The translations under genes and the position numbers were made by a program. Positions 28,596 through 47,182 of a stretch of DNA of 64,000 bases are shown one piece after another. Origin of the DNA: an uncultured Collinsella sp. (GTDB taxonomy: Bacteria; Actinomycetota; Coriobacteriia; Coriobacteriales; Coriobacteriaceae). The DNA lies in assembly GCA_902494625.1 (NCBI GenBank), contig CABUUB010000001.1, positions 17,708-81,707 of the forward strand. Direction: 5' to 3'. Position 1 is the first letter of the stretch, and each line of letters begins with the position of its first letter. The notes under the pieces are model-generated. The model ran no database searches, was not told the DNA's origin, and worked only from the letters and a program-made list of their open reading frames with translations.

Positions 28596-28639
28596 ATTAA
28601 GGCAGCTCGGCCTTTCGCGAGGTATATTCGCTACAGAGT

Positions 28640-28680
28640 CTATTCCTCAAAACTGAAAATTTTTCAGTTTTGAGGAATAG
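28640..28680. repeat. 41-bp perfect palindrome, copy 2
   Basis: ctattcctcaaaactgaaaa-t-ttttcagttttgaggaatag (20-bp arms). Confidence 0.9.
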
Positions 28681-28706
28681 CGATAAAATACCGCGAGGAG
28701 GCCCCA

Positions 28707-29903: not shown

Positions 29904-29910
29904 CAGAAAG

Positions 29911-29953
29911 CCTATTCCTCAAAACTGAAAAATTATCGTTTTTGAGGAATAGG
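29911..29953. repeat. 43-bp AT-rich palindrome, copy 3
   Basis: cctattcctcaaaactgaaaaattatcgtttttgaggaatagg, starting 8 nt after the ATPase stop codon. Confidence 0.9.
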
Positions 29954-30008
29954 ACCGATGCATTGCCTAGTTCGCCGCTCGCGCTCGTGCTCGACTTAAG
30001 CCCCCGCC

Positions 30009-30782
30009 CTACCTCTGCTCCTGCATGCGGCGGTAGATTTCGCAGATACCCTTGATGGTGAGCTGTCCGTCTACCACGTCGAAGGCGTCGGTCGAACCGG
30101 CGACGATGCTGGCGAGGCCGCCCGTGGCGATAACGGTGGCATCCTCGCGGCCCAGCTCGCGCTTCATGCGCGCGACCAGGCCCTCGGCCATGGCGGCGGC
30201 GCCCGTCACGGCGCCCACCTTGATGCACTCCTCGGTATCGCGGCCGATGGCATGCTCGGGCGCCTCGAGCGGCACGCTGGCGAGCTTGGCGGCTCGGGCG
30301 GCGAGCGCGTCCATCGAAATGCGGATGCCCGGCGCAATCGCTCCACCAATGTAATAACCGTCCTCATCGATGACGTCGATATTGGTCGCGGTGCCAAAGT
30401 CCACCACGATTGCCGGCGCGCCGTAGAAAGTTTCGGCCGCAACGGCGTTAGCGACGCGGTCGGCACCTACGGCCTGGGGACGCGCCGCGCGCAGCTTGGT
30501 CACCGCGGCCGTCTGCGGTCCGATGACGATGGCGTCTGCGGCAATGCGGTCGGCCACGGCGTGCCATTCGCGCGAGAGCTGCGGCACCACGCCCGCAAAG
30601 GCGATCGCGTCGACTGCGTCGAGCGAAAGGCCGTACATCTTAAAGAAACCCATCAGGCGCACATGGATCTCGTCGGCGGTATAAGAGCGGTCGGTGGGCA
30701 TGCGCCACGACTGCACCAGCTCGTCTCCGTCAAACAGGCCCATGGCCGTCTGCGTATTTCCCATATCGATAGCGAGCAGCAT
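30009..30782 (-). CDS. coaX: type III pantothenate kinase
   Basis: MLLAIDMGNTQT..., VVDFGTATNIDV and ATGGLA are CoaX motifs. Start chosen at the ATG preceded by GGGAG. Confidence 0.85.
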   Translation of the reverse strand: MLLAIDMGNTQTAMGLFDGDELVQSWRMPTDRSYTADEIHVRLMGFFKMYGLSLDAVDAIAFAGVVPQLSREWHAVADRIAADAIVIGPQTAAVTKLRAARPQAVGADRVANAVAAETFYGAPAIVVDFGTATNIDVIDEDGYYIGGAIAPGIRISMDALAARAAKLASVPLEAPEHAIGRDTEECIKVGAVTGAAAMAEGLVARMKRELGREDATVIATGGLASIVAGSTDAFDVVDGQLTIKGICEIYRRMQEQR

Positions 30783-30979: not shown

Positions 30980-31056
30980 TGCGGGGTGGAGCAGTCTGGT
31001 AGCTCGCCGGGCTCATAACCCGGAGGTCGTAGGTTCAAATCCTGCCCCCGCGACCA
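30980..31056 (+). tRNA. metZ: initiator tRNA-Met (CAT anticodon)
   Basis: 77 nt, a near-copy of the bacterial tRNA-fMet consensus (GCGGGGTGGAGCAGTCTGGTAGCTCGCCGGGCTCATAACCCGGAGGTCGTAGGTTCAAATCCTGCCCCCGCGACCA). The anticodon stem has three G:C pairs. Position 1:72 is weak (U:G). CCA is encoded. Confidence 0.9.
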
Positions 31057-31145
31057 AGAACTTGCAGCTCGTCGGCCTGGCCGGCGAGCTTTTTTGTTAT
31101 TTCGGGACCGTGTTTTCGGTCCAATCCTCGGCCTCTCAAACAAAA

Positions 31146-31361
31146 TCTCGATCTGTAACATCTAGACCCGATTTGGGCGGCTAGGTGTTACAGATCGAGA
31201 TGTTTCGGCAGGATGGTCTTCGTTTGTCTAAATCTGTAACACGAGGGACGGATTTTGCCGAGTTACTGTTACAGATTGAGATTTTCTAGCAGGCGGGTCC
31301 CGTTTGTCTCGATCTGTAACATCTGGGGCCCATTTTGCCGAGTAACTGTTACAGATCGAGA
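31146..31361. repeat. hairpin-array repeat, locus B (3 units)
   Basis: 15-mer arms at 31146, 31186, 31227, 31267, 31307 and 31347, alternating in orientation with 25-nt spacers. Confidence 0.9.
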
Positions 31362-31399
31362 CGCTGGGTCCTCGCCCGCACGGCCTTAATCGTTGGTAA

Positions 31400-32281
31400 T
31401 CAGGAACTCATCCAGGAATACATCGAGTAGATCGTTTTTCGCTGCGGCAGCCAGGCGGCGGCAATCGTCATTTCGGTCGATTTGCCTTCTATGGGAATCG
31501 CGACGACTTTGCCGTTGGTGGGAAACGCCTGCGTGAGATATCCCGGCAGCAGCGCGTAGCCCAAACCGGCGGCGACGCACAGCACGCTCGTCTCGACGTC
31601 TTCGGACACATAGGCAATCTTGGGATGCTCTTCAATCTTGGCAAGCGTGGTCGCGATCGCTTCCGATTCGCCGTACCCGCTGGCTCCGCGTGTAGCGTCG
31701 ACGATTGGATACCCCTTAAGGTCCTCGATACAGATCGACTGTCGGTGGGCGAGCGGGTGGTCGAGCGGCACCACGGCGTGCAGCGGGTAGGACCTCAAGA
31801 CCTGCCACTGCATATCGGACATGCGGTACTCGTTGTAGAGCAGGTTAATGCATACGTCGATATCTTCTCGGCGCAGTGCGTCGTAGAGCTCCGAGACGTT
31901 GTCGCGCATAAAGCTTAGCCGGACGTTGGGATAGCTCTTATGAAACCCAAACAGCATGTCGGCGAGATCGGTCCGTTCGTATCCCTTGATGTAGCCGACC
32001 TTGAGCTCGCCTTCGGGCATGTCGTCTGCCGCCCGCGCGCGCCTTACGGCCTCGGTGGTTCGTGCGACAATCGCACGGGCATCATCAAGGAACAGGGCTC
32101 CCGCCACCGTAAGCTCAACGTGATGGTTGTCGCGTTCGAACAACTGCTTTCCCACGGCGCGCTCGAGCGCCGCGATCTGGTTGGAAATCGTTGCCTGCGA
32201 AACAAAGAAATCCTTGGCGACTTTCGAAAAAGAGCGCGCCTCGGCCACGGCTATAAAGTACTCCAGCTGTTTGATGCGCAT
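31400..32281 (-). CDS. LysR-family transcriptional regulator
   Basis: N-terminal HTH MRIKQLEYFIAVAEARSFSKVAKDFFVSQATISNQIAALE plus a LysR substrate-binding domain. RBS GGAGAA. Confidence 0.85.
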   Translation of the reverse strand: MRIKQLEYFIAVAEARSFSKVAKDFFVSQATISNQIAALERAVGKQLFERDNHHVELTVAGALFLDDARAIVARTTEAVRRARAADDMPEGELKVGYIKGYERTDLADMLFGFHKSYPNVRLSFMRDNVSELYDALRREDIDVCINLLYNEYRMSDMQWQVLRSYPLHAVVPLDHPLAHRQSICIEDLKGYPIVDATRGASGYGESEAIATTLAKIEEHPKIAYVSEDVETSVLCVAAGLGYALLPGYLTQAFPTNGKVVAIPIEGKSTEMTIAAAWLPQRKTIYSMYSWMSS

Positions 32282-32423
32282 AGTTCTCCGTACATTAGAT
32301 TTCCTTATCACGTAATGCATAGATTAGCGCAAACGCCCAGCGTTTTCCCTTCTATGATTTAGGAACGGTTATTTGCGTGCGTATCGACAACACCGCAAAT
32401 TTCTTTTGAAGAGAGGGATCTCG

Positions 32424-33002
32424 ATGAAGGGCCGTAAAACCATCAAGCTTGTCCAGGCCGCCACTGGTGCCATTGCGCTCACGCTCCTTATGCAACTGAT
32501 GGGGGTGTTTGGGTACGGGCAATACACCTGGATGTGCTTTTTGCCGTTGCTGATGTTTTTTGCTTTTGGAGCCGATTTTAAGAAGATCCCCGAGATGCTG
32601 GTGAGCTATGCCGTCGGCGAGGTTTGGTGTGTGATCAACTCGCTGGTCATGGGCGTGTTTGTCTCGGCCTTTGGCGCCGATAACATGGTTATGAGCAACA
32701 TCGTCCCAACCATCCTGGTTATCTTTTGCATCTTGACGACTCACGAGAACCTGCTCGAAGGCAAGATCTGCTCCAATGTTCCATGCGTCTTTATGGGCCT
32801 TGCCACGTCGTTCTTCACGTTTATGTTGCAGCAGCCGATCAACTTTGGCCACCTCTTTGCGTTTTGGGCCTTTGGAATCGCGCTCGCGGTTTGCCTGGTC
32901 ATGTCGGGAACGCTCGTGTGCTCGGCAATCTTTGGAAAAGAGCGCACTATTCAGGCACTTACGCCACTCGATGTTCTCGAGGCGCAGCAGAACCATAAAT
33001 AA
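32424..33002 (+). CDS. small integral membrane protein (DUF1097-like, about 6 TM)
   Basis: 192 aa, hydrophobic throughout. Divergent from the LysR gene. The family call is tentative. Confidence 0.5.
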   Translation: MKGRKTIKLVQAATGAIALTLLMQLMGVFGYGQYTWMCFLPLLMFFAFGADFKKIPEMLVSYAVGEVWCVINSLVMGVFVSAFGADNMVMSNIVPTILVIFCILTTHENLLEGKICSNVPCVFMGLATSFFTFMLQQPINFGHLFAFWAFGIALAVCLVMSGTLVCSAIFGKERTIQALTPLDVLEAQQNHK

Positions 33003-33255
33003 GATAACTCGATTATCAGAGGCGGGTGCCATAAGGCACATCGCTCCTTTTGCATGTGGCGGCAAGGACCGGGCGCTCCAAATAATTGCCCAAACGCATG
33101 GTTCATCCGCACAAAGCCCATGGTCGCTATGGGCAAACATCGGTGCGCCTGCACATGGTTTTGAGCCTGTTTTCGAGCGAAAGTATGGCTGTCGATACGC
33201 ATGCAATTCGCATGAAACCCGGGCTCGTCCAAGAGCCCTATAAAGGAGGATTCAC

Positions 33256-34761
33256 ATGAAACAGTTAGAGACCGACGTCGTTGTCGTCGCCGCAGGTCTG
33301 AGCGGCCTTGCCGCAGCGGTCGCTGCAGCCGAGGCGGGCGCTCGCGTCATTGCCCTGGAGAAGGCTCCCATTACCGGTGGCGCCGCCAACATGGGCATGG
33401 GGCCTGCTGCCGCTGGCTCTCCGCTTCAGAAGGCCTCGATGATCGAGGTCACGCCTGGCGAGCTCTTCCGTCGCCATATGTTCTACACCCATTACCAGGT
33501 CGATGCTCGCCTGGTGCGCGACTACTACTTTAAGTCGGGCGACACCATCGCATGGCTGCAGGACATGGGCGTGGAGTTTAACTCCGTGCGCCCGGCGTTC
33601 CGCGCTCGCGAGCGCACGCGCGCCTATTCCGACGGCGAGTACACCTGGCATGTCGTGCAGCCCGAGGACGGCTCGGAGCCCGGTCCTCGCGCGGCCACCA
33701 CGATGACCAAGCGCATGACCGAGCGTGCTCAGGACCTGGGCGTCGAGTTTATGTTTGAGTGCCCGGGCACCGGCCTTATCAAGGGCGGGGACGGCGCCAT
33801 CTGCGGCGTGACCGCAAAGGACAAGGACGGCGAGGAGTACCAGATCTCGTGCAAGTCCGCGATTGTCGCCACGGGCGGTTTTGGCCACAACGCCAAGCTT
33901 ATCAAGGAGAAGCTCGACTTTGAGTGGGGTACCGACCTGTTCTCGTTTGCCATTCCGGGCATGGACGGCGACGGCATCAACATGTGCCACGAGGTCGGCG
34001 GCGGCCACACCCCGGTGACCATGGAGCTCATGTACCAGATCCCCGACAACATGAACCACTTCTATGTCGAGGGCGCATTCCGTCAGCCGTGCTACTGGTG
34101 CAACCGCCTGGGCGAGCGCTTTATGCCGGAGGACGAGATCTTCAACACCACCTTTGTCGGCAACGCCATCAACCATCTTCCCGGCAAGGTCGCCTATGCC
34201 ATCTTTGATTCCCGCATGCTCAAGCATTGGAAGAAGGACGGTCCGGATATCGTCAGCCACGTTCATCCGCACGACCTGTACGACGGCTTTGAGGAACAGT
34301 GGAACCGCGACCTGGAGGCTGGCTATCCGGCAATCTGCCAGGCCGATACGCTGGAGGAGCTTGCCGAGAAGGCTGGTATCGATGTTGAGGGCTTGCTCGC
34401 CAATGTCGACGAGTACAACGAGATGTGCGACAACGGCTGGGACGACATCTTTGAGAAAGAGCGCGAGTTTATGAAGCCGCTCGAGAAGGGCCCCTTCTAT
34501 TGCTGCAAGCAGTACTGTGGCGCCTACGGCACCTTGGGTGGCGTGCTCATCAACCACAAGATGGAGGTCATGACCGACGATTACGAGGTCATCCCTGGCC
34601 TGTACTGCGTTGGCACCGATGCCTGCACCATCTATGGCGACTCCTATAACTACTGCATTCCGGGTAACACCATGGGCTTCTGCCTTAACTCGGGTCGCAT
34701 CGCCGGTGAAAACGCCGCCGCAGCCCTCTTTGAGGACGCGGGCGACGAGGAGTGGTCGTAA
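33256..34761 (+). CDS. FAD-dependent oxidoreductase of the fumarate-reductase / KstD / urocanate-reductase flavoprotein family (cytoplasmic)
   Basis: N-terminal DVVVVAAGLSGLAAAVAAAEAGARVIALEK dinucleotide fold, mid ATGGFGHN, and C-terminal PGLYCVGTDA...GNTMGFCLNSGRIAGENAA. No signal or Tat peptide. Confidence 0.8.
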   Translation: MKQLETDVVVVAAGLSGLAAAVAAAEAGARVIALEKAPITGGAANMGMGPAAAGSPLQKASMIEVTPGELFRRHMFYTHYQVDARLVRDYYFKSGDTIAWLQDMGVEFNSVRPAFRARERTRAYSDGEYTWHVVQPEDGSEPGPRAATTMTKRMTERAQDLGVEFMFECPGTGLIKGGDGAICGVTAKDKDGEEYQISCKSAIVATGGFGHNAKLIKEKLDFEWGTDLFSFAIPGMDGDGINMCHEVGGGHTPVTMELMYQIPDNMNHFYVEGAFRQPCYWCNRLGERFMPEDEIFNTTFVGNAINHLPGKVAYAIFDSRMLKHWKKDGPDIVSHVHPHDLYDGFEEQWNRDLEAGYPAICQADTLEELAEKAGIDVEGLLANVDEYNEMCDNGWDDIFEKEREFMKPLEKGPFYCCKQYCGAYGTLGGVLINHKMEVMTDDYEVIPGLYCVGTDACTIYGDSYNYCIPGNTMGFCLNSGRIAGENAAAALFEDAGDEEWS

Positions 34762-34894
34762 CACCGTAGCTATTCGCGCCTGCGGACACCCACGCGTTGG
34801 GTGCAGGCGGGGATTTGCCCTACAAGCGAGGCGCTCGGGATCGCTTTGGTCCCGGGCGCCTTTCTGGACAAGAGCGACATTTTGAGGGGAACGA

Positions 34895-37027
34895 ATGAAG
34901 CTAACGATTAATGGAGCCGAGGTCGAGGCGCGCGAGGGGCAGAATGTCCTGGAAGCCGCGCTCGATGCCGGTATCTATATTCCGCATCTGTGTAAGCATC
35001 CCGATCTTGAGGCCGTAGGCGGATGCCGTCTGTGCATGGTCGAGATCGAAGGCCAAGACGAGCCGGTGTGTGCCTGCAAGACGCAGGTTGCCGAGGGAAT
35101 GGTCGTCAACACGACAGGCGAGCAGGCCGAGCGCGTGCGTAAGCTGGCAATGGAGCTTATCTTGGCCACGCATCCCGCCGATTGCACCGGTTGCCCCAAG
35201 TACGGCAAGTGCGAGCTACAGTCTATGTATCAGTACATGGGAGTTTCGCCGGCGCGCTGGCGCACCAAGAGCCGTCCGGTCGCCACGGACGAATCGAACC
35301 CGCTGATCACCCATATGTTCACCCGCTGCATTCGGTGCGGTCGCTGCGTGCGCGCCTGCCGCGAGCTGCGCGGCGCCGGCGTTTTGGACTACCAGCGCAC
35401 CGAGGACGGCATTCGCATTGGCACCGACGGCAGCGTAAGCCTGCAAGAGGCCGGATGCCGTTTTTGCGGTGCCTGTATCGAAGTGTGCCCCACGGGCTCG
35501 ATCGTCGACACACTCAATATGTTCGATGAGAACAAGTCCTATGCCGACAACGTAGTCCCCTGTCGCTCGGGCTGTCCCGCTCATGTGGATATCCCGCGCT
35601 ACCTGCGTCATATTCGCAACGGTGAGTACACCCGCGCCGCCGCGGTGGTTCGCGAAAAGGTTCCGTTCCCCGAGAGCCTGGGCGACATTTGCGTCCATAG
35701 CTGCCAGGATGCCTGCAAGCGCAATGAGCTCAACGGCACGCCGGTTTCGGTCTGCCGACTTAAGCGCGCTGCTGCCGTGCGCGATACGGGCGACTGGAAA
35801 GCGAATGTGCGCCACGAGCCGCTGAGCGGCAAGCGCGTCGCCGTTGTGGGCGCCGGCCCCGCCGGCCTGACCGCCGCGCTCTATTGTGCCGAGAAGGGCC
35901 ACAAGGTCGTGGTGTTCGAGGCCAACGAGAAGGTCGGTGGCCAGATGCGCTACAGCATTCCGGCGTATCGCCTGCCCGATGCCACGGTCGATGCCGAGGT
36001 TGCGACGATTTTGGAGATTGCCCAGGGTGATGATGCCGAGCCGCGCATTGAGCTGCGCTGTGGCGAGCGAATCGCCGACCCCAAGGCGCTTTTGGAGCAG
36101 GGCTTCGATGCCGTGCTGGTTGCGGTGGGTACCCATGACGGAACGGTGCTCCCCATGCCTGGCCACGACCTCGAAGGCGTGCTGCGCAACACCGATTTTT
36201 TGAAGGCTGCCCGCGTGGGCAACGCCCCCGATCTTTCGGGCAAACGCGTTGTGGTGCTTGGCGGCGGCAACGTGGCGTACGACTGCGCTCGCACCGCCGT
36301 GCGCCTGGGTGCCGCCTCGGTCGATGTCGCCTGCCTTGAGGCCCAAGACGTGATGACCTCGACGCCCGAGGAGCGTGCCGAGGCTGCCGAGGAAGGCGTG
36401 GTGCTGCACGACGCCTATGCCTTTACCAGCATCAACGAGACCGATAAGGGTTCGGGCAAGGTCGGTTCCATGACGATCCACAAGATCGAGCGGTTCTACT
36501 TTGACGAGAATCACCGCGCCGTCACCGAACTGCTCGACGGCGGCGAGAAGACCATCGGTGCCGACTGCGTGATCTTCGCCGTGGGCCAAAAGCCCGAGGG
36601 TACGGCTCAGATGGGCCTTGAGCTTACGCACGGTCCGTACATCGTGGCCGACGCCGAGGGCAAGACGAGCATTGAGGGCGTTTGGTCGGCTGGCGACTGC
36701 GTGACGGGCACCAAATCGGTGATTGCGGCAATCGCTGCAGGCCGCACGTGCGCCTCGGCCATAGATCGCGCCTTAGGTGGCGATGGCGACATCGACGAGG
36801 AGCTGACCGAGCGCGATACTCCCGAGCAGTGGATCGGGCATGCCCCCGAGGGCTTTTACGGCGATGCCGTGCAGCCAGAGTTTGTCGATGTCCAGGCGCG
36901 CAAGGATAACTTCGATACGTTTGAGTGCCCCTATACCGATCATGAGGCCACGTGCGAGGCGAGCCGCTGCTTGCAGTGCGATTTGCGCCTAACGATCAGC
37001 ACGCCGCGCCTGTGGAACGAGTACTAG
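34895..37027 (+). CDS. multi-cluster FeS flavoprotein: NuoG/HydA-like N-terminus fused to a GltD-like NAD(P)H oxidoreductase
   Basis: The [2Fe-2S] region reads CKHPDLEAVGGCRLCMVEI...CAC. H-x3-C-x2-C-x5-C appears as HPADCTGCPKYGKC. The 2x[4Fe-4S] region reads CIRCGRCVRAC...CRFCGACIEVCP. Then come the GltD FeS region and two Rossmann motifs (VAVVGAGPAGLTAA, VVVLGGGNVAYD). Confidence 0.8.
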   Translation: MKLTINGAEVEAREGQNVLEAALDAGIYIPHLCKHPDLEAVGGCRLCMVEIEGQDEPVCACKTQVAEGMVVNTTGEQAERVRKLAMELILATHPADCTGCPKYGKCELQSMYQYMGVSPARWRTKSRPVATDESNPLITHMFTRCIRCGRCVRACRELRGAGVLDYQRTEDGIRIGTDGSVSLQEAGCRFCGACIEVCPTGSIVDTLNMFDENKSYADNVVPCRSGCPAHVDIPRYLRHIRNGEYTRAAAVVREKVPFPESLGDICVHSCQDACKRNELNGTPVSVCRLKRAAAVRDTGDWKANVRHEPLSGKRVAVVGAGPAGLTAALYCAEKGHKVVVFEANEKVGGQMRYSIPAYRLPDATVDAEVATILEIAQGDDAEPRIELRCGERIADPKALLEQGFDAVLVAVGTHDGTVLPMPGHDLEGVLRNTDFLKAARVGNAPDLSGKRVVVLGGGNVAYDCARTAVRLGAASVDVACLEAQDVMTSTPEERAEAAEEGVVLHDAYAFTSINETDKGSGKVGSMTIHKIERFYFDENHRAVTELLDGGEKTIGADCVIFAVGQKPEGTAQMGLELTHGPYIVADAEGKTSIEGVWSAGDCVTGTKSVIAAIAAGRTCASAIDRALGGDGDIDEELTERDTPEQWIGHAPEGFYGDAVQPEFVDVQARKDNFDTFECPYTDHEATCEASRCLQCDLRLTISTPRLWNEY

Positions 37028-37044
37028 GAAAGGAGCGATAACCC

Positions 37045-37620
37045 ATGACGATCATCAACTTTATGCCCGTGCATCGACAGGCGCCCGTGGCGCTCTGGCT
37101 CCTTAAGAAGGACGTGGCGGCAGCTGCGGAAAAAATTGCAGAGACCGGCGCCCAGGCGGTTCTGGTGCCGGCGGGCGATGAGGTCTCTGCCGCGCTCGCG
37201 GATGCGTTGGGCGAGTCCTGCCGCGTGATCGAGTGTGACCCGAGCTTGGGCTTTGTCTATGCCAACGGTTCGGCTGCCGCCAAGATGCTCGACGGCGAAA
37301 AGCCGCTCCCATCTTGTTGCGAGGGCGATGGCACCGATCGCTGCCTGAGCGGATTGGAGTTGCTTGCCGCCGAAGGCAAGCGCTGGGTGTGGTTTGACGG
37401 GGCCGATGAGCCCGTTGAGCTCGGTTGCGTTACGAGCGCGAGCGCCCTGGTTGCCGCGGCGGGCGTTGCCGATGCCAAAGCGGTGGGGATTGGCTATCCC
37501 AGCGGTCTGTTGCTGAAGCCCGATGATACTTCGGAGTTTGAGCTGCACAGCGACTACGTCCGCGTCTACACCGCCAAAAACTGCATGGCAAAGGCGCTTT
37601 TGGACATTTGCACGCTCTAA
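37045..37620 (+). CDS. NuoF/HydB-like protein, N-terminal fragment (SLBB-like region; no FMN/NADH site); ends at an in-frame TAA
   Basis: 191 aa. The C-terminal ...VYTAKNCMAKALLDICTL* aligns with the stretch just before the ESCGKC motif of NuoF-type proteins. The reading frame continues after the stop. Confidence 0.55.
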   Translation: MTIINFMPVHRQAPVALWLLKKDVAAAAEKIAETGAQAVLVPAGDEVSAALADALGESCRVIECDPSLGFVYANGSAAAKMLDGEKPLPSCCEGDGTDRCLSGLELLAAEGKRWVWFDGADEPVELGCVTSASALVAAAGVADAKAVGIGYPSGLLLKPDDTSEFELHSDYVRVYTAKNCMAKALLDICTL

Positions 37621-37749
37621 CGTCACGAGAGTTGCGGACGCTGTGTCTTTGGTTACGAGGGCTCTCATCAGATTGCGACGATTCTTGCCGATATCTGCCG
37701 CAAGAAGGGCAAGCCGGGCGACCTGGCGCTCCTTCGCGACCTTTGCCCC

Positions 37750-38121
37750 GTGATGCAGACGCAGTGCCTGTGCGAGCAGGGTCGCGTGCTGGCGCGCACG
37801 GTGCAGTCGTTCTTCGACCTGTTCGAGGGCGAAATTATGCAGCACGTCACCAAGAAGGTCTGCGCCGCCGGGGAATGCCAGGCGTTTTTGACCTTCCATA
37901 TCCTCGCCTCCAAATGCCAGGCCTGCAACAAGTGTGTCGATTCGGACGTTTGCGAGGAGGACGCGATCCTGGGAAGGCCGCGCTTTATCCACGTGATCGA
38001 CCAGAAGGCCTGCAGCCAATGCGGTGCCTGCCTCGACATTTGCGACAACGGCGCGATCGTCACGGCTGGGGCCGTCAAGCCCAAGTGCCCGCCCAAACCC
38101 ATTCCCTTTAAGCACAAATAG
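37750..38121 (+). CDS. C-terminal fragment of the same NuoF/HydB-like frame: 2x[4Fe-4S] ferredoxin domain
   Basis: CQACNKCVDSDVC and CSQCGACLDIC motifs. The same frame is open from 37621 (RHESCGRCVFGYEG...QCLCEQG, a NuoF 4Fe-4S region lacking its third Cys). The first ATG is at 37750. Confidence 0.5.
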   Translation: MMQTQCLCEQGRVLARTVQSFFDLFEGEIMQHVTKKVCAAGECQAFLTFHILASKCQACNKCVDSDVCEEDAILGRPRFIHVIDQKACSQCGACLDICDNGAIVTAGAVKPKCPPKPIPFKHK

Positions 38122-38315
38122 CGCGATTCCCTCTCTCGTTTTGCCCGCATTGAGCAGGGCGGGAGGGGATTTTGTTTATCTGCACGAGGTGCCCTGCAGA
38201 CTTTCGCATGAGCCTTGGTTGCCTGGACGGTGCGCACGTTTTGCGTCTGCCGTACGCTTTTTGCGAAGTACGCACGGGCAGAATCCGTGTCCAAATGCTC
38301 TGGAGAGGAGCGACC

Positions 38316-39308
38316 ATGTCGTTTAAAGTGATGGCGATTTGTGCCGGTAGGCACGGTGGCAACGGCGAGGCTTTGGCCAAAGAGGCCCTTTGCGCGGTGC
38401 GCGAGGCTGGCGGCGAGGTCGAGCTGATCAATCTGTTCGATTACAACATCTTGCCCTGCACCGGCTGCGAGGGCTGCACCATGCAGATGGGAAAGATGGG
38501 TGCCGGCCTGCAAAAGGAATATCACGGCTGCGTCCTTAAGAAAAAGGACGACGTCGACGCGATTATCCGTGAACTGCAGACCTGCCAGGGCGTAATCTTC
38601 TCGGTCCCGACGTACGACCTCACGCCCAGCTCGGTGTACACCCGCTTTGCCCAGCGCTTCTTGGCATATGAGCTTTCGTTCTTGCTTGCCATTGGCGCCG
38701 TAAAGGAGAATCCGCATACTGTTGCCGGCCTTATTTCCGTCGGCGGCTCCATGCACGATTGGCAGTCCCTGGCGCTGGAGAGCCTGCAGGCGACCATGTT
38801 TACCATGTCGATGACCGTTGTCGATCGCTATATGGCGCAGCGCGATGGCCGCCCGGGCAATGCGTTTGTGTGGGGAGACGACGTGGAATGGGGCGGACAG
38901 ATCGCCCGCGCGCACAAGATGGGCGAGAACATCGTCAAGGCTATCCGCACGCCGGTTGACGAGCGCTGCTGGCTGGGCGACCCGGACGACGGCGTGTGCC
39001 CCAACTGCCACAGCTCCCTGGTGTACCCCGGCGACAAGCATTGGGATGGGGTCGAGTTCCCGTGGGAGTGCGCGGTCTGCGGTGCCGGTGGCGATATCGT
39101 GACCGACGAGCGAACCGGCCGTCCCAAGCTCAAGATCGCCGAGAACGGTCTGATTCGCGACCGTAATGACGACCACGCGCGCGCCGAGCACCTCAACGAG
39201 ATCAACAAGACCCGCGACGAGTTCTTTGCCCACATGGACGAGGTCAAGCCGATTATGGAGAAGTACGCCAAGATGACGTTCCCCACGCTGGAGATTAAGC
39301 GCGACTAG
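38316..39308 (+). CDS. NADPH-dependent FMN reductase / iron-sulfur-flavoprotein-like protein with a C-terminal Zn-ribbon extension
   Basis: KVMAICAGRHGGNGE...LPCTGCEGC (Isf-type compact Cys motif)...GVIFSVPTYD. The C-terminus carries CPNC-x19-CAVC. The ATG follows GGAGAGGAG. Confidence 0.7.
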   Translation: MSFKVMAICAGRHGGNGEALAKEALCAVREAGGEVELINLFDYNILPCTGCEGCTMQMGKMGAGLQKEYHGCVLKKKDDVDAIIRELQTCQGVIFSVPTYDLTPSSVYTRFAQRFLAYELSFLLAIGAVKENPHTVAGLISVGGSMHDWQSLALESLQATMFTMSMTVVDRYMAQRDGRPGNAFVWGDDVEWGGQIARAHKMGENIVKAIRTPVDERCWLGDPDDGVCPNCHSSLVYPGDKHWDGVEFPWECAVCGAGGDIVTDERTGRPKLKIAENGLIRDRNDDHARAEHLNEINKTRDEFFAHMDEVKPIMEKYAKMTFPTLEIKRD

Positions 39309-39330
39309 TTTTGCTTGAGCCCCGCTCGGC

Positions 39331-40644
39331 CTATTTGCGACAGTGCAGGTCGGCGCTGGTGCGGGGCTTAATCCTCGGCTCAAGAAAGCCAAGGTAGATT
39401 AGGGTACGAATCGAGAGGTGGAACAAAAAGAGGTCCTCTCCCGATGCCAGGTCGTTACCTGTGATTTCCTTTATGCGGTTTAGGCGATAGAGCAACGTGT
39501 TCTTGTGAAGCGACAAGATCGCGGCAGTGCGCGCCGTGTTGCAGCTGTGTTGCATAAAGGCAAAGAGTGTCTCGACCAGCTCGGAATCGTGCGACTGGTC
39601 ATGCTCCCAAAGTGCCCAGATTGCCGGATGGCAGTAGTTCATAAGGTTGATGTGGTCGTTGCAGATGTCGAGCATCTCCATGTAGGTGTATTCGCAATAG
39701 CGATACACATGGGTGTCTTCGAGGATTTTGGTAAAGGTCGAGCCGTAGCGAATGGCGGCGCGTGCCTGATTGAGGTGCGAACGCACATCCGTTGCCTGGG
39801 AAAACTCATTGCTGATGCCGACAAACAGGTTGTTTGCGGCGGCGACGCGCGCAAGGATCGCCTCGTCGTTGGCAGGTAGCTGCGTGGAGGGCGGACGGCT
39901 TACCAACGCCACGAGCTCACCCTCGTACATGGTGATAAGGCTATGGTGCAGCAGCGGCTGCAATTGTCCTCGGATGCTCTCCGCCTCGCGCGCCTCGATC
40001 TGGGAATCCTTTTTGAGCAGGCATACAACGTAGAGGGCGGGAAGCGGCGCAAAGCCGACGAGCTGCATTTTGCGTGTGCAGGTAATGGGGTTGGGGATTT
40101 CGTCGTCTAGGAGGCGCGAGAGAAAATATGGTCCCTGTTGCGGGCCGCCCAACGAAAGAAAGCCGCCTTTCTGCAGCTCTTGTGCGAGCAGTCGGACAAA
40201 GAACTCAAAGACTTCGAGATCGCTATCGCCAAAGGCGTGATTGCGCTCGATCATCATCACCCGGCCCAGGCACGTGCCGTGCACCTTGATCGCCCCGGTC
40301 ATGGTGTTGAGGCAGAACATGTCGTTATACCGTGTGAGCGGGCCTGTCGAGCGGGCGATCTTCTCGTCTAAGCCGCGTTCGATGATGTAGCGCACGGCTT
40401 CGTCTTGCAGTATGTCGCCTTCGGAGAGCTCGGCGCGGGTGATGGCTGCAAAGGGGGAGTCGTCGGCATCGTCGAGCTCAAAGCCGCCGCGAGCGGCGTA
40501 GCGGTAGACGGGATCGACGACGAGCACCGGGTTGTCCATAACGGTAGAAGCTGTTTGCGTGAGGCTCTTGAGCCCCGCGTCGCTCAAGAGCGCCTCGAGC
40601 AGCGCTTGCTTTGCGGTGGACCTATCGGTGGTGCTCGGTTGCAT
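39331..40644 (-). CDS. PucR/CdaR-family transcriptional regulator
   Basis: C-terminal PucR HTH (NTARTAAILSLHKNTLLYRLNRIKEITG) plus a GGDEF-like middle domain. Start chosen at the ATG after GAAGGGA. Confidence 0.8.
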   Translation of the reverse strand: MQPSTTDRSTAKQALLEALLSDAGLKSLTQTASTVMDNPVLVVDPVYRYAARGGFELDDADDSPFAAITRAELSEGDILQDEAVRYIIERGLDEKIARSTGPLTRYNDMFCLNTMTGAIKVHGTCLGRVMMIERNHAFGDSDLEVFEFFVRLLAQELQKGGFLSLGGPQQGPYFLSRLLDDEIPNPITCTRKMQLVGFAPLPALYVVCLLKKDSQIEAREAESIRGQLQPLLHHSLITMYEGELVALVSRPPSTQLPANDEAILARVAAANNLFVGISNEFSQATDVRSHLNQARAAIRYGSTFTKILEDTHVYRYCEYTYMEMLDICNDHINLMNYCHPAIWALWEHDQSHDSELVETLFAFMQHSCNTARTAAILSLHKNTLLYRLNRIKEITGNDLASGEDLFLFHLSIRTLIYLGFLEPRIKPRTSADLHCRK

Positions 40645-40784
40645 GGTTGTCCCTTCTGCCGCGTCTTCGCCGTAGTCGACGCATGACCAAATTATTATCG
40701 CAGGCTGCACAGCATTAGGTTGTTTAAAACGATGAGTGTGGCGGTCGTTTCCTCGAACGGGGCGGCGTTGTTGCTGGGGGGTCG

Positions 40785-40999: not shown

Positions 41000-41141
41000 C
41001 AAACCGACGGGCCGCCCTGCCCCATCCACCTGCCGCCACCTGATATTCGCCGATTTTCGTTGTGCCGCTGTGCCCCCATGCCATATCCTCTAGACAACTA
41101 CGCGGCATCATCGCCGCCGCGCCTACAAGAGAGGAATGTCC

Positions 41142-43172
41142 ATGACCGCACCTGCATCCAAGCTGCTCCAGCCCATTACGGTTGGCCCCCTTGAGCTCAA
41201 AAACCGCATTATGTTTCCGCCGCTGACTACCGGCTACGAGGAGCGTGACGGTTCCATCGGCGAGCGCAGCCTGGCTTTTTACGAGCGCTTGGCCCGTGGC
41301 GGCGTGAGTTACATCGTCATCGGCGACGTTGCTCCCGTCATGACCGCAAGCCCCACGCCCAAGCTGGCGACCGACGCCCAAATCCCCACGTTTAAGGCCC
41401 TGGCCGATGCCGTCCACAAGCACGGCGCCAAGGTCGCGCTGCAGCTGTTCCACCCCGAGTACGACGTGCCCGGTGTCGGCCGCATGGTCATGGGTTCCAT
41501 GGCCGCCGCCAAGGCCGCGCAGGAGGCCAAGGCCGCCGGCGACGAGGAGGCCTTTGCCGCCAAGATGGCCGAGTCCAACGAGATCCGCAATCAGGCCTAC
41601 GCCAAGCTGCACCACGACATGCAGCACTTTGTGAACGAGGCCAGCGTGGATCAGCTCACCCAGATCAAGGAGGCCATCGCTGCCTCGGCCGCCCGCGCGC
41701 AGCAGGCCGGCATCGACGCCATCGAGGTCCACGGCGACCGTCTGGTGGGTTCGCTGTGCTCCGCGATCCTCAACCAGCGCACCGACGAGTACGGTGGCTC
41801 GTTCGAGAACCGCGTCCGCTATGCGCTCGAGGTCGTCGCTGCCATTAAGGAAGCCGCGCCGCAGCTGATGGTGGAGTACAAGCTCCCCGTGATCATGGAG
41901 AACCCCGACGGCACGCCGCGCGGCAAGGGCGGCTTGCAGCCCGACGAGGCCTGCGAGTTCGCCAAGCTGCTCGAGGGCGCGGGCATCGATATGATCCAGG
42001 TCGCGCAGGCCAACCACACCGGCAACATGGGCGACACCATTCCGCCCATGGGTGCCATGCCCTACAACTGGACGCTGCCCGTGGCCGAGCGCGTCAAGGC
42101 CCTGGTCTCCGTGCCGGTGGCAACCGTCGGCCGCGTGGTCTCGGTCGAGGCCGGCGAGAAGATTCTGGAAGACGGCGCCGCCGACATCATCGCCTACGGC
42201 CGCTCGCTCATGTGCGACCCCGACATTGCGCTGAAGGCCGCCACGGGCGAGCCCATCCGCGAGTGCCTCAACTGCAACAAGGGTTGCGTCGACGCGATCC
42301 AAAACCGCAAGTACATCTCGTGCGTGCTCAACGCCGAGAACGGTGACGAGGCGACCATCGCCATCAAGCCGGGCGAGGGCGACAAGAAGATCGCCGTGGT
42401 GGGCGGCGGTATTGCCGGCCTGGAGGCCGCACGCGTGGCGGCCAAGCGCGGCTACGACGTGACCATCTACGAGGCGAGCGATCACTTGGGCGGCCAGATT
42501 GTGCTGGCGGCTGCGCCTCCGCGCAAGGACGAGATCATGCGCTCGGTCGAGTACTACGAGAAGATTCTGCCTGGCCTGGGCGTGAAGGTTGAGCTCAACC
42601 ACGTCGCTAGCCCCGCGGACCTCAACGCCGCCGACGCCGCGATTGTGGCTGTGGGCGCACACGACGTGATCATCCCCGTTCCGGGTGCCGACTCGGAGAA
42701 GGTCGTCTCGAGCTGGGACGTGCTGGCCGGCAAGGTGGAGCTCAGCGGCCGCGTCGCCGTCATTGGCGGTGGCCTGGTGGGCACCGAGACTGCCGAGTAT
42801 CTGCTGCAGCACGGCTGCGAGGTGGCGATCGTGGAGATGCTCGACAAGATTGCCGCGGGCGAGTCCGAGACCATTCTGCCGCTGATTATGAGCGACTTTG
42901 CCGAGCACAACGTGGAGCAGCACGTGAAGACCCGTCTGACCGCCATTGCCGACGAGGGCGTGGAGGCCATTCGCACCACCGAGGACGGCGCCGAGGAGCC
43001 GGTGAAGATCGCCTGCGATTACGTGGTGATGGCCGTGGGCTCCAAGGCCAACGCGTTTGATCTGGACGGCGTGACGGTGCCCGTGACCTGCGTGGGCGAC
43101 TGCTCGGGTGAGCGCACCGCCGACATCGCGAGCGCCATTCGCACGGCGTATCACGCGGCCAACGAGCTGTAG
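41142..43172 (+). CDS. Old-Yellow-Enzyme / 2,4-dienoyl-CoA-reductase-type enoate reductase (FMN TIM barrel, [4Fe-4S], FAD/NAD(P) domain)
   Basis: LKNRIMFPPL, HGDRLVGSLCS, the Cys cluster CLNCNKGCVD...C, then VAVVGGGIAGLEAA and VAVIGGGLVGTETA Rossmann motifs. The ATG at 41136 is also possible. Confidence 0.8.
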   Translation: MTAPASKLLQPITVGPLELKNRIMFPPLTTGYEERDGSIGERSLAFYERLARGGVSYIVIGDVAPVMTASPTPKLATDAQIPTFKALADAVHKHGAKVALQLFHPEYDVPGVGRMVMGSMAAAKAAQEAKAAGDEEAFAAKMAESNEIRNQAYAKLHHDMQHFVNEASVDQLTQIKEAIAASAARAQQAGIDAIEVHGDRLVGSLCSAILNQRTDEYGGSFENRVRYALEVVAAIKEAAPQLMVEYKLPVIMENPDGTPRGKGGLQPDEACEFAKLLEGAGIDMIQVAQANHTGNMGDTIPPMGAMPYNWTLPVAERVKALVSVPVATVGRVVSVEAGEKILEDGAADIIAYGRSLMCDPDIALKAATGEPIRECLNCNKGCVDAIQNRKYISCVLNAENGDEATIAIKPGEGDKKIAVVGGGIAGLEAARVAAKRGYDVTIYEASDHLGGQIVLAAAPPRKDEIMRSVEYYEKILPGLGVKVELNHVASPADLNAADAAIVAVGAHDVIIPVPGADSEKVVSSWDVLAGKVELSGRVAVIGGGLVGTETAEYLLQHGCEVAIVEMLDKIAAGESETILPLIMSDFAEHNVEQHVKTRLTAIADEGVEAIRTTEDGAEEPVKIACDYVVMAVGSKANAFDLDGVTVPVTCVGDCSGERTADIASAIRTAYHAANEL

Positions 43173-47170: not shown

Positions 47171-47182
47171 GAGGCGGCATCC

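What the first reader, a model, noticed from the sequence alone, without database searches (positions are those of the whole stretch)
31400..40644. Orphan soluble reductase cluster with its own multi-cofactor electron-input chain and two flanking regulators
Gene order:
- LysR regulator (minus strand)
- small 6-TM protein
- cytoplasmic FrdA/KstD/urocanate-reductase-family flavoprotein (33256-34761)
- 710-aa fusion of a NuoG/HydA-type [2Fe-2S]+[4Fe-4S]x3 module with a GltD-type NAD(P)H-FAD module
- NuoF-like SLBB/FeS protein lacking the FMN/NADH site
- Isf-like FMN protein with a Zn-ribbon tail
- PucR regulator (minus strand)

Flavoprotein reductases of this family in gut Actinobacteria usually act on specific host, dietary or drug molecules. 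Here the catalytic subunit has no signal or Tat peptide. It is teamed with a chain that resembles the electron-input side of bifurcating hydrogenases and Nfn. That suggests an NAD(P)H- and/or ferredoxin-coupled, possibly confurcating, cytoplasmic reductase for an unknown substrate.

An OYE/FadH-type enoate reductase follows, divergently from the PucR gene. I do not recognise this subunit combination as a characterised enzyme.
Basis: partly seen in the sequence, partly recalled or inferred. Interest (0 to 1): 0.62.

Follow-up and report, generated by a model that had tools for sequence, protein, structure and literature searches.

The report
Conserved multi-subunit cytoplasmic flavin reductase cluster
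A gut Collinsella carries a widely conserved, uncharacterised four-protein reductase (two flavoenzymes fed by an NAD(P)H/iron-sulfur chain) that most likely reduces plant flavonoid-type compounds; it lies next to, but is independent of, the known bilirubin reductase gene, and one subunit gene carries a stop codon in this strain.

Summary
One thing was missed. The NuoF-like gene (37045-38121) has an in-frame TAA at 37618-37620, where all 69 related loci read Tyr/Asn/Phe/Leu.

Four genes travel together in every evaluable locus:
- the FAD flavoprotein
- the 710-aa NuoG-N/GltD fusion
- the FMN-less NuoF/HydB-like protein
- an "Isf-like" protein, which belongs to the flavone reductase (FLR) family

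The trio co-occurs in 66/66 loci and an FLR gene in 54/55. This holds across Coriobacteriia and in the five Bacillota or other loci examined. LysR, DUF1097 and the OYE gene are not conserved partners. The OYE gene is the known bilirubin reductase BilR.

The flavoprotein lacks the fumarate-binding His/Arg residues. Its nearest named family is vinylphenol reductase VprA, at half the family cut-off. The Bfu-type bifurcation site (FMN plus a NuoE-like subunit) is absent.

Outside C. aerofaciens the module sits beside true FLR orthologues. It also sits with a Cys-thiolase/DUF35, ACP, phosphotransacylase, butyrate-kinase set. DUF1097 relatives flank FLR and chalcone isomerase in Clostridium.

Best reading (inferred): an NAD(P)H-driven cytoplasmic flavonoid/enone reductase. 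I found no published characterisation.

The parts
31400..32320 (-). LysR-family regulator (variable accessory gene)
   Evidence: Pfam HTH_1 + LysR_substrate. Window segment 31316-32765 is absent from most C. aerofaciens-group strains. LysR was found in only 5 of about 40 close loci.
32424..33002 (+). DUF1097 multi-pass membrane protein, a putative substrate permease (ORF opens at 32373)
   Evidence: Pfam DUF1097. It is 46% identical over 178 aa to the DUF1097 gene that lies between chalcone isomerase and FLR in C. carboxidivorans. It is 5'-truncated in most related strains. Gut metatranscriptome contigs of relatives cover it.
33256..34761 (+). Cytoplasmic FAD flavoprotein of the FrdA/UrdA/KstD superfamily, the presumed terminal reductase
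   Evidence: Pfam FAD_binding_2, 168 bits. Best NCBIfam hit is VprA at 301 bits against a 600-bit cut-off. At the Fcc3 positions His365/Arg402/His504/Arg545 it has Tyr260/Thr298/Tyr424/Cys467; the first three are invariant in 115 family members. Structural neighbours are Fcc3, UrdA, KstD and cyclohexanone dehydrogenase. Codon differences between strains are about 40 synonymous against 1-4 non-synonymous.
34895..37027 (+). 710-aa fusion of a NuoG/HydA-type N-terminal FeS module with a GltD/NfnL-type FAD-NAD(P)H module; the presumed electron entry
   Evidence: Pfam Fer2_4, NADH-G_4Fe-4S_3, Fer4_7, Fer4_20, Pyr_redox_2. PDB: residues 222-696 match NfnA 9bov_A (4e-112), StnC 8oh5_C (2e-93) and NfnL 5jca_L (4e-46); residues 1-208 match NuoG/HydA.
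37045..38121 (+). FMN-less NuoF/HydB-like FeS protein, interrupted in this window
   Evidence: Pfam NADH_4Fe-4S plus a 2x[4Fe-4S] ferredoxin domain in the C-terminal part; nothing in the N-terminal 191 aa. The C-terminal half matches the HydB C-terminus. The whole-length fold matches HydB/StnB/NfnB/NuoF. The N-terminal domain is the least constrained part and is absent from the Lachnospiraceae orthologue.
37618..37620 (+). In-frame TAA (nonsense) codon at a position that is Tyr in close relatives
   Evidence: Sequence read directly. Among 69 related loci the codon is TAT/TAC in 56, AAC in 6, TTC in 5 and CTG/CTA in 2. The truncated product is a singleton cluster on 2 contigs. The downstream codons show no decay.
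38316..39308 (+). FLR-family FMN protein ('group A' paralogue) with a CxxCxxC...C motif and a CPxC...CxxC ribbon
   Evidence: Pfam FMN_red. It matches the crystal flavone reductase 7d38 at E 1.5e-16 over residues 4-263, with both Cys motifs shared. It is only 24-25% identical to true FLR orthologues. Codon differences between strains are about 50-57 synonymous against 2-4 non-synonymous.
39331..40710 (-). PucR-family regulator (ATG at 40644, GTG at 40710)
   Evidence: Pfam HTH_30 + GGDEF_2. It is present next to the module in 22/22 C. aerofaciens-group loci and in the Olsenella-type loci that carry FLR group A. PucR-type genes also flank the Bacillota versions.
41136..43172 (+). BilR, bilirubin reductase long form (a neighbour, not part of the conserved module)
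   Evidence: NCBIfam NF045599 scores 1040 bits against a 750-bit cut-off, and NF045592 scores 525 against 425. The HGDR motif starts at residue 199. It is adjacent in 22/22 C. aerofaciens-group loci and 0/19 others. A terminator-like hairpin lies at 43248-43276.

Best explanation
The region encodes a conserved cytoplasmic multi-subunit reductase.

Shown:
- The 710-aa protein carries a GltD/NfnL-type FAD-NAD(P)H module fused behind a NuoG-type FeS wire.
- The NuoF/HydB-like protein has kept its FeS domains but has no FMN/NADH site.
- Two flavoenzymes are linked to this chain: a VprA/KstD-like FAD protein without fumarate-binding residues, and an FLR-family FMN protein.

Inferred:
- NAD(P)H is oxidised at the GltD FAD. 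Electrons then pass through the FeS clusters to the two flavoenzymes, which reduce activated C=C bonds.
- The substrates are most likely plant flavonoid-type molecules. The FLR-type protein would reduce flavone to flavanone. The flavoprotein would reduce chalcone/flavanone to dihydrochalcone, replacing the OYE-type Fcr.
- In Olsenella-type and Bacillota clusters, an adjacent Cys-thiolase/DUF35 + ACP + phosphotransacylase + butyrate-kinase set would cleave the acyl-phloroglucinol product thiolytically and yield ATP. C. aerofaciens keeps only the reductive part, as an electron sink.
- Ferredoxin could be a co-substrate through NfnSL-like bifurcation at the GltD FAD. This is open.

In this strain the nonsense codon in the NuoF-like gene probably disables the chain.
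For: Co-conservation:
- The trio is present in 66/66 evaluable loci and an FLR-family gene in 54/55.
- The same set occurs in Lachnospiraceae, Clostridium and other MAGs.
- The flavoprotein and FLR-A are under strong purifying selection.

Electron chain:
- Domain and PDB matches.
- Fold match.

Substrate class:
- The fumarate His/Arg residues are replaced by invariant Tyr/Thr/Tyr.
- The best family hit is VprA. KstD and cyclohexanone dehydrogenase are structural neighbours.

Flavonoid link:
- True FLR orthologues lie immediately upstream of the flavoprotein in 27/28 non-aerofaciens loci. They are 50-58% identical to a Clostridium FLR that matches the apigenin-bound crystal FLR at 2.9e-147.
- FLR needs an external reductant in vitro (PMC7862272).
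- DUF1097 relatives flank CHI and FLR in C. carboxidivorans.
- Clostridium SHJSY1 has a Phy-like DAPG hydrolase, PadR and an OYE gene beside the module, in place of the thiolase/ACP set.
- Flr hits in Olsenella were noted before (PMC8398226).

Thiolase set:
- The nucleophile Cys is invariant.
- The protein is a relative of PhlC and BbsB.
- The kinase is called as butyrate kinase.
Against: - There are no activity data for any subunit, and no report that Collinsella or Olsenella convert flavones or chalcones.
- The window's FLR-type protein is a distant paralogue (24-25% identity). One F. plautii FLR paralogue is inactive on apigenin (PMC8398226).
- No chalcone isomerase lies in any Coriobacteriia locus.
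- FLR occurs without the trio in Clostridium and Fusobacterium, so the trio is not an obligatory FLR donor.
- Clostridium SHJSY1 has an OYE gene as well as the trio, so 'Fcr replacement' is not required there.
- C. aerofaciens lacks the thiolase/ACP/kinase genes within 10 kb.
- Physical association of the four proteins is inferred from gene linkage only.
- Operon structure rests on the absence of terminator-like sites and on patchy metatranscriptome contigs.
Confidence: 0.5

Rival explanations
1. Bile-pigment enzyme. In Collinsella the module works with BilR on bilins, for example as the still unidentified urobilinogen-to-stercobilinogen reductase, which would reduce the unsaturated lactam end rings.
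For: - It lies next to bilR, with PucR between them, in 22/22 C. aerofaciens-group loci.
- The nearest named family reduces a vinyl group.
- The enzyme for the urobilinogen-to-stercobilinogen step was still unknown in 2026.
- Homologues at 67-69% identity occur in Lachnospiraceae and Blautia, the family nominated for this step (PMC13526984).
Against: - bilR is adjacent in 0/19 other loci, although the flavoprotein stays 80-96% identical there. This argues for the same substrate in oral, rumen and poultry taxa.
- The ancestral context (FLR orthologue, thiolase/ACP/kinase, DUF1097) does not fit a tetrapyrrole.
- Vinyl reduction is already assigned to the OYE enzyme BilV.
Confidence: 0.07
2. Simple phenylpropanoid or stilbene electron sink. 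The flavoprotein reduces free 4-vinylphenols, hydroxycinnamates or resveratrol, as VprA and the gut PF00890 reductases do. The FLR-like protein would serve only as an Isf-like electron carrier.
For: - VprA is the best family hit, and in L. plantarum it is likewise paired with a LysR regulator.
- Gut PF00890 reductases use cinnamates and resveratrol.
- The FLR-type protein has an Isf-like CxxCxxC...C motif.
Against: - The VprA score is half the family cut-off.
- VprA and the Light-lab reductases need no FeS/GltD partners.
- The constant linkage to FLR orthologues, and in Clostridium to Phy-like and PadR genes, points to C6-C3-C6 substrates.
- FLR-A is as strongly constrained as the flavoprotein, which is unusual for a generic carrier.
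Confidence: 0.17
3. Steroid or bile-acid ene-reductase. A KstD-like flavoprotein would run in reverse on a 3-oxo-delta-4 or delta-1 steroid or bile-acid intermediate.
For: - KstD, delta-4-(5-alpha)-KSTD and cyclohexanone dehydrogenase are among the best structural neighbours (TMq 0.74-0.78).
- Tyr sits at the position of the carbonyl-polarising residue.
- Collinsella is a bile-acid transformer (own knowledge).
Against: - NCBIfam KstD models score far below their cut-offs.
- No HSDH or bai-type genes lie in any locus examined.
- The context genes are flavonoid-type.
Confidence: 0.07
4. In this particular strain the cluster is a recently inactivated remnant. The nonsense codon removes all FeS domains of the NuoF-like protein, so nothing is reduced through this chain.
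For: - The TAA at 37618-37620 is unique among 70 sequences.
- The next in-frame start is at 37750, after the ESCGRC cluster motif.
- The truncated product is seen on 2 contigs from NCBI/Logan/ENA.
- LysR/DUF1097 deletions in sister strains show that the locus is in flux.
Against: - The source reads could not be found, so a base-calling error is not excluded.
- The downstream codons are undecayed.
- The Lachnospiraceae orthologue works with the C-terminal half alone, so a restart product is conceivable.
Confidence: 0.55

Closest known systems
Bfu-family transhydrogenases NfnABC / StnABC (PDB 9bov, 9n5u, 8oh5; PMC11829005, PMC10482914)
   Same: - A GltD-type FAD-NAD(P)H module is fused to NuoG-type FeS domains in one polypeptide (E 4e-112 and 2e-93).
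- The partner has the NuoF/HydB fold, with an N3-type domain and a C-terminal 2x[4Fe-4S] ferredoxin domain.
   Different: - The domain order is reversed: NuoG-type first, then GltD-type.
- There is no MopB-like domain.
- The NuoF-like protein has no FMN/NADH site.
- No NuoE-like subunit is encoded, so the B1-FMN-C1 'flavobicluster' bifurcation site is absent.
- The electron sinks are two extra flavoenzymes rather than NAD+.
NfnSL (NfnAB) NADH-dependent ferredoxin:NADP oxidoreductase (PDB 5jca, 4ylf)
   Same: - The GltD-like large-subunit module, with FAD and two [4Fe-4S] clusters, is present (E 4e-46 to 5e-55).
- In NfnSL this FAD is the bifurcating site, so the same chemistry is possible here.
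   Different: - No NfnS-type small subunit lies in the cluster. A canonical NfnAB pair lies elsewhere in the window, at 14552-16791.
- Additional NuoG-type clusters and different acceptors are present.
Vinylphenol reductase VprA of Lactiplantibacillus plantarum (NCBIfam NF053717)
   Same: - It is the best-scoring named family for the flavoprotein, over the full length (1.7e-89).
- It is cytoplasmic and a single FAD_binding_2 protein.
- A LysR regulator lies next to it.
   Different: - The score of 301 bits is below the 600-bit cut-off.
- VprA works without GltD/FeS partners.
Soluble fumarate and urocanate reductases (Fcc3, UrdA) and 3-ketosteroid dehydrogenases (KstD)
   Same: They share the two-domain FAD fold.
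   Different: - Fcc3 His365/Arg402/His504/Arg545 are replaced by Tyr/Thr/Tyr/Cys.
- There is no haem domain and no FMN_bind domain.
- KstD family models score far below their cut-offs.
Flavone reductase FLR (PDB 7d38-7d3b; PMC7862272) and the FLR-CHI-Fcr-Phy flavonoid pathway
   Same: - The window's 330-aa protein shares the FMN_red core, both Cys motifs and the C-terminal subdomains.
- True FLR orthologues are linked to the same trio in other Coriobacteriia.
- DUF1097 neighbours are shared with Clostridium CHI-FLR loci.
   Different: - The window's copy is only 24-25% identical to FLR orthologues.
- No CHI, OYE-type Fcr or Phy lies in the Coriobacteriia clusters.
- A flavoprotein/FeS trio and, elsewhere, a thiolase/ACP/kinase set stand in their place.
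PhlABC acyl-phloroglucinol C-C acyltransferase and BbsAB thiolase (thiolase-like + DUF35 pairs)
   Same: In related loci a thiolase-like protein with an invariant Cys is paired with a DUF35 protein.
   Different: - These genes are not in this window.
- They are linked to ACP, a phosphotransacylase and a butyrate kinase, which PhlABC and BbsAB are not.
- The relationship to PhlC is distant (1.8e-13).

Membership tests
Soluble fumarate reductase (Fcc3/FrdA type) | Substrate-binding and catalytic residues His365, Arg402, His504 and Arg545 (Fcc3 numbering) | tested here: not met
   The pairwise HMMER alignment gives Tyr260, Thr298, Tyr424 and Cys467. The first three are invariant in 115 family members. 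Arg381 is kept, as Arg276.
Urocanate / acrylate / cinnamate reductases with covalent FMN | An FMN_bind domain (or a haem domain) that delivers electrons to the FAD domain | tested here: not met
   Only FAD_binding_2-type hits span residues 7-465. The protein is 501 aa and has no extra domain.
Vinylphenol reductase VprA (NF053717) | Score at or above the curated equivalog cut-off (600 bits) | tested here: not met
   300.9 bits, full-length alignment.
3-ketosteroid delta-1 / delta-4 dehydrogenase (KstD) | NCBIfam equivalog cut-offs; a Tyr/Gly carbonyl-polarising pair | tested here: inconclusive
   NCBIfam scores are 65-128 bits against cut-offs of 788-793. The fold match is TMq 0.74-0.78. Tyr424-x3-Gly428 is present at the aligned site, but equivalence was not checked on coordinates.
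BfuABC electron-bifurcating enzymes (HydABC, NfnABC, StnABC) | FMN/NADH site in the NuoF-like B subunit | tested here: not met
   No Complex1_51K hit in Pfam or NCBIfam. No Gly-rich FMN loop in the 191-aa N-terminal part. The fold is retained but shortened.
BfuABC electron-bifurcating enzymes (HydABC, NfnABC, StnABC) | NuoE-like C subunit carrying the C1 [2Fe-2S] cluster | tested here: not met
   No such gene lies in the window cluster or in any of the related loci annotated.
NfnSL (NfnAB) | GltD-like large subunit with FAD, an NAD(P)H site and two [4Fe-4S] clusters | tested here: met
   Fer4_20 + Pyr_redox_2. The GxGxxG and GGGNVA motifs can be read in the sequence. PDB matches: 5jca_L 4e-46, 4ylf_B 5e-55.
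NfnSL (NfnAB) | FNR-like small subunit with [2Fe-2S] and a second FAD | tested here: not met
   Absent from the cluster. The only such pair in the window is at 14552-16791.
Flavone reductase FLR | Sequence and fold of the crystallised FLR, including the C-terminal substrate-binding 'tail' | tested here: inconclusive
   E 1.5e-16 over residues 4-263, with both Cys motifs shared. Identity to true orthologues is only 24-25%. The tail residues were not compared.
Flavone reductase FLR | [quoted passage not shown] | not testable with these tools
   This needs an enzyme assay. FLRs about 30% identical to each other are both active, but one paralogue is not.
Bilirubin reductase BilR (neighbouring gene 41136-43172) | NCBIfam NF045599/NF045592 cut-offs and the HGDR motif | tested here: met
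   1040 bits against 750, and 525 bits against 425. HGDR starts at residue 199.
PucR / CdaR-type regulator | C-terminal HTH_30 with a GGDEF_2-like middle domain | tested here: met
   Pfam scores 66.5 and 35.7 bits, both above their cut-offs.

The most novel reading that the evidence does not exclude
The module is a new type of flavin-based electron-bifurcating reductase. NAD(P)H would be oxidised at the NfnL-like FAD. One electron path would run 'downhill' to the flavonoid/enone-reducing flavoenzymes. The other would run 'uphill' through the HydB-type [4Fe-4S] domain to ferredoxin, which the Ech-type hydrogenase encoded 1 kb beyond bilR can re-oxidise. In Olsenella-type clusters this would be joined to an ACP-dependent thiolytic cleavage of dihydrochalcones that makes ATP, an energy-conserving alternative to phloretin hydrolase.
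Probability: 0.13. Interest if true: 0.85.

Novelty: new variant of a known kind. Interest (0 to 1): 0.64.

Why it matters
Collinsella is among the most prevalent gut Actinomycetota. This flavoprotein cluster alone has 1565 member sequences, so the module is common in human and animal guts.

If the reading is right, three things follow:
- It would supply the missing physiological electron input for FLR-type ene-reductases.
- It would add a non-OYE route for flavonoid C-ring reduction.
- In Olsenella and Lachnospiraceae it would show a way to gain ATP from polyphenol cleavage.

It also shows Nfn/Bfu building blocks re-used without their bifurcation site, which bears on how such complexes evolve. 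For bilirubin work it is a caution. The genes beside bilR in Collinsella are probably not bilin enzymes. They do remain the most obvious local candidates to test for the unknown stercobilinogen step.

Tried and rejected
- Fumarate or urocanate reductase: rejected on the active-site residues and the missing FMN_bind or haem domain.
- Bfu-type bifurcation: rejected, since there is no FMN site and no NuoE-like subunit.
- Selenocysteine or pyrrolysine read-through of the internal stop: rejected, because the codon is TAA.
- Checking the stop in the source reads: no run holds more than 19% of the words. The exact-product look-up for contigs gave nothing.
- Riboswitch or leader RNA in the intergenic gaps: Rfam found only tRNA-Met.
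- Promoter scan: uninformative, with 1 site found against 3.5 expected.
- BilV next to BilR, as reported for many Collinsella: there is no second OYE gene in the window.
- Chalcone isomerase, Phy or KdgT homologues in the window or in Coriobacteriia loci: none.
- Literature on the thiolase/DUF35/ACP/phosphotransacylase/butyrate-kinase combination and on resorcinol reductase: nothing relevant.
- A dearomatising resorcinol or phenol reductase was considered from the cyclohexanone-dehydrogenase and ChcC hits. It was set aside because the FLR, DUF1097 and Phy links fit flavonoids better.
- Pure-culture RNA-seq of Collinsella: none found, only metatranscriptome contigs of 90-95% relatives.
- A four-Cys FeS site in the flavoprotein: the four invariant Cys map to distant parts of the fold, so this was not pursued.

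Full report
**Origin and anatomy**

The window comes from a Collinsella aerofaciens-group genome. The flavoprotein is 99-100% identical in 41 Collinsella loci from isolates and MAGs.

- LysR, 31400-32320 (-).
- A DUF1097 membrane protein, 32424-33002.
- A 501-aa FAD_binding_2 flavoprotein, 33256-34761. It begins directly with its FAD-binding fold, so it has no signal peptide.
- A 710-aa fusion protein, 34895-37027. It reads Fer2_4, a His-ligated [4Fe-4S], two ferredoxin-type [4Fe-4S], then a GltD-type Fer4_20 + FAD/NAD(P)H module.
- A NuoF-like protein, 37045-38121.
- An FMN_red protein with Cys motifs, 38316-39308.
- PucR, 39331-40644/40710 (-).
- An OYE/FadH protein, 41136-43172.

No terminator-like hairpin lies between 33256 and 39308. 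Strong ones lie at 31066 and 43248.

The NuoF-like reading frame contains a TAA at 37618-37620, just before the ESCGRC cluster motif. In 69 related loci that codon is Tyr (56), Asn (6), Phe (5) or Leu (2), and never a stop. The next in-frame start is at 37750.

The 191-aa product is a singleton cluster, seen on two contigs from NCBI/Logan/ENA. The intact 96%-identical orthologue cluster has 1309 members. The codons after the stop show the same synonymous excess as in other strains. So this is either a very recent nonsense mutation or a base error. The source reads could not be found.

**Co-conservation**

I fetched 80 genome loci around flavoprotein relatives (80-100% identity; Collinsella, Olsenella, Paratractidigestivibacter, Parafannyhessea and other Atopobiaceae). 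I searched them with every window protein.

- The fusion protein and the NuoF-like protein follow the flavoprotein in 35/35 and 31/31 evaluable loci.
- An FLR-family gene is present in 27/27 and 27/28 loci.
- PucR and the OYE gene are adjacent in 22/22 C. aerofaciens-group loci. The OYE gene is adjacent in 0/19 others.
- Window segment 31316-32765 (LysR plus the 5' part of DUF1097) is absent from most sister strains.
There the flavoprotein is 67-78% identical.
- Between Collinsella strains the flavoprotein shows about 40 synonymous against 1-4 non-synonymous codon changes. The FLR-type protein shows 50-57 against 2-4. The N-terminal half of the NuoF-like protein is the least constrained, at 25-35 against 10-23. 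That half is missing altogether in the Lachnospiraceae orthologue.

**The electron-input proteins**

Residues 222-696 of the fusion protein match the GltD-like parts of these solved chains:

- C. saccharolyticus NfnA (9bov_A, 4e-112)
- S. ovata StnC (8oh5_C, 2e-93)
- T. sibiricus NfnA (9n5u_A)
- NfnSL large subunits (5jca_L, 4ylf_B)

Residues 1-208 match NuoG/HydA N-termini. In NfnA and StnC the GltD part comes first; here it comes second.

The C-terminal half of the NuoF-like protein matches the HydB/NfnB/StnB C-termini. An AlphaFold model of the intact orthologue (pLDDT 93.3) superposes over its whole length on HydB, StnB, NfnB and NuoF (TMq 0.70-0.78). No Complex1_51K or FMN-loop signature is detectable, and no NuoE-like gene is present.

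The Bfu bifurcation site is defined as FMN plus the B1 [4Fe-4S] plus the C1 [2Fe-2S] of the NuoE-like subunit (PMC11829005). That site is therefore absent. The only NAD(P)H site is the GltD/NfnL-type FAD, which is the bifurcating flavin in NfnSL. Whether it bifurcates here cannot be told from sequence.

**The flavoprotein**

PDB sequence neighbours are Fcc3 (1.7e-37), UrdA (3e-25) and ketosteroid dehydrogenases. Fold neighbours add KstD and cyclohexanone dehydrogenase.

In the alignment to Fcc3, the fumarate-binding and catalytic residues His365, Arg402, His504 and Arg545 are Tyr260, Thr298, Tyr424 and Cys467. The first three are invariant in 115 homologues, which share 198 invariant positions.

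The best NCBIfam family is vinylphenol reductase VprA, at 301 bits against a 600-bit cut-off. So this is not a fumarate or urocanate reductase. It looks like an enzyme for a 4-hydroxystyryl or enone-type C=C bond. That last step is an inference.

**The 'Isf-like' protein**

Its only PDB match is the flavone reductase FLR (7d38, 1.5e-16). The match includes the CxxCxxC...C motif and the CPxC...CxxC ribbon.

FLR reduces the C2-C3 bond of flavones. In vitro it had to be fed FMNH2 from a separate NADH:FMN reductase, so its natural donor is unknown (PMC7862272).

There are two subfamilies:

- 'Group B' lies immediately upstream of the flavoprotein in the non-aerofaciens Coriobacteriia. It is 50-58% identical to a C. 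carboxidivorans protein that matches the crystal FLR at 2.9e-147. These are true FLR orthologues. Flr hits in Olsenella had been noted before (PMC8398226).
- The window's copy is 'group A'. It is 24-25% identical to group B and 48% identical to the Lachnospiraceae copy.

Olsenella sp. An293 has both subfamilies flanking the trio.

**Wider context**

Outside the C. aerofaciens group, the loci with full 10-kb flanks also hold:

| Gene | Loci |
|---|---|
| Phosphotransacylase | 19/19 |
| Kinase (called as butyrate kinase, 444 bits against a 222-bit cut-off) | 17/19 |
| CocE/NonD hydrolase | 13/19 |

Many loci also hold a thiolase-like protein with a DUF35 partner and an ACP. The thiolase-like protein keeps an invariant nucleophile Cys. 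It is related to archaeal thiolases, BbsB and, more distantly, PhlC.

Other context points to flavonoids:

- Clostridium sp. SHJSY1 has a Phy-like DAPG hydrolase, PadR, transporters and an OYE gene in place of that set.
- In C. carboxidivorans the FLR orthologue sits in the order chalcone isomerase - DUF1097 - FLR - DUF1097. In Fusobacterium ulcerans the order is MarR - chalcone isomerase - FLR.
- The window's DUF1097 protein is 46% identical to the Clostridium one.

Taken together, this supports a flavonoid-type pathway: FLR-type C-ring reduction, then flavoprotein-catalysed chalcone/flavanone reduction fed by the NAD(P)H/FeS chain. Where the thiolase/ACP/kinase set is present, it would cleave the acyl-phloroglucinol thiolytically with ATP gain.

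Only the domain content and the gene linkage are shown. Every catalytic assignment is inference.

**The BilR neighbour**

The OYE gene scores 1040 bits on the 'bilirubin reductase, long form' model (cut-off 750) and has the HGDR motif.

Two 2026 preprints show that BilR reduces the methine bridges and an OYE enzyme, BilV, reduces the vinyl groups. They also report that about 88% of Collinsella genomes carry both genes. The urobilinogen-to-stercobilinogen enzyme is still unknown.

Adjacency to bilR makes a bilin role worth testing. But the adjacency is confined to one species group, while the flavoprotein stays highly conserved in taxa without it. I give that reading about 7%.

**Expression**

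Three gut metatranscriptomes contain contigs 90-95% identical to the window. They cover the DUF1097 and flavoprotein genes fully and the downstream genes patchily. This shows that relatives express the locus in vivo, and nothing more.

**Verdict**

- It is wrong or unproven on LysR, on the OYE partner, and on the carrier role of the FMN protein.
- I rate the finding a new variant of known kinds of enzyme: a soluble FrdA/KstD-type reductase, Nfn/Bfu modules and an FLR-type protein. Its most likely role is in flavonoid reduction.

Noticed in passing
window 41136-43172: The OYE/FadH gene beside the cluster is bilirubin reductase BilR, long/insertion form (NCBIfam 1040 bits, HGDR motif). No BilV-like second OYE gene is in the window, although the two are reported adjacent in many Collinsella genomes.
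   Followed up: yes
window 44288-49547: A group-4 (Ech/Hyc-like) membrane-bound [NiFe]-hydrogenase operon: a fused NuoL/NuoH-like membrane subunit (960 aa), a 20-kDa small subunit, a 30-kDa subunit and a 49-kDa/NiFe large subunit. It is a possible sink for reduced ferredoxin.
   Followed up: partly
window 14552-16791 (-): A canonical NfnAB/NfnSL pair: a GltD-like 469-aa protein plus an FNR-like 279-aa protein with a DHODB Fe-S domain. It is separate from the cluster.
   Followed up: partly
window 31316-32765 and 28598-30017: Presence/absence polymorphisms between strains. LysR plus the 5' part of DUF1097 is missing in most sister strains. The AAA_14/DUF4143 ATPase gene (28707-29903) is missing in several.
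   Followed up: yes
window 30980-31056: A tRNA-Met (CAT), followed by a strong terminator-like hairpin (31066-31090), lies just before the variable LysR/DUF1097 segment.
   Followed up: partly
window 43613-44002: A small ORF with transposase-type HTH domains (HTH_28, HTH_Tnp_1) lies between bilR and the hydrogenase operon. Sister strains differ around 44045-44148.
   Followed up: no
window 50366-57676: A giant 2436-aa ORF with 13 Spy0128/FctA-type isopeptide pilin domains and an N-terminal VWA domain, presumably a surface adhesin or pilus tip protein.
   Followed up: no
L047 8660-9742 and 15245-16234 (Olsenella sp. An293): Two diverged FLR-family genes flank the flavoprotein/fusion/NuoF-like trio in one cluster. 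Also present are an MFS transporter, butyrate kinase, phosphotransacylase, CocE/NonD hydrolase, thiolase-like protein, DUF35 and ACP.
   Followed up: partly
L082 13613-14188 (Lachnospiraceae MAG): The NuoF-like orthologue is only 191 aa (N3-type domain plus a 2x[4Fe-4S] domain). It lacks the whole N-terminal degenerate Rossmann/SLBB part.
   Followed up: partly
L087 6442-9590 (C. carboxidivorans P7) and L088 6476-8936 (Fusobacterium ulcerans): FLR orthologues lie directly beside bacterial chalcone isomerase (Chalcone_N). In Clostridium they sit between two DUF1097 genes, which suggests that DUF1097 proteins are flavonoid-related permeases.
   Followed up: partly
L082 9515-9967, L058 9293-9883, L085 8498-9016: An unannotated family of 150-196-aa four-helix membrane proteins sits immediately upstream of the flavoprotein. 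This is the position DUF1097 occupies in the window.
   Followed up: no
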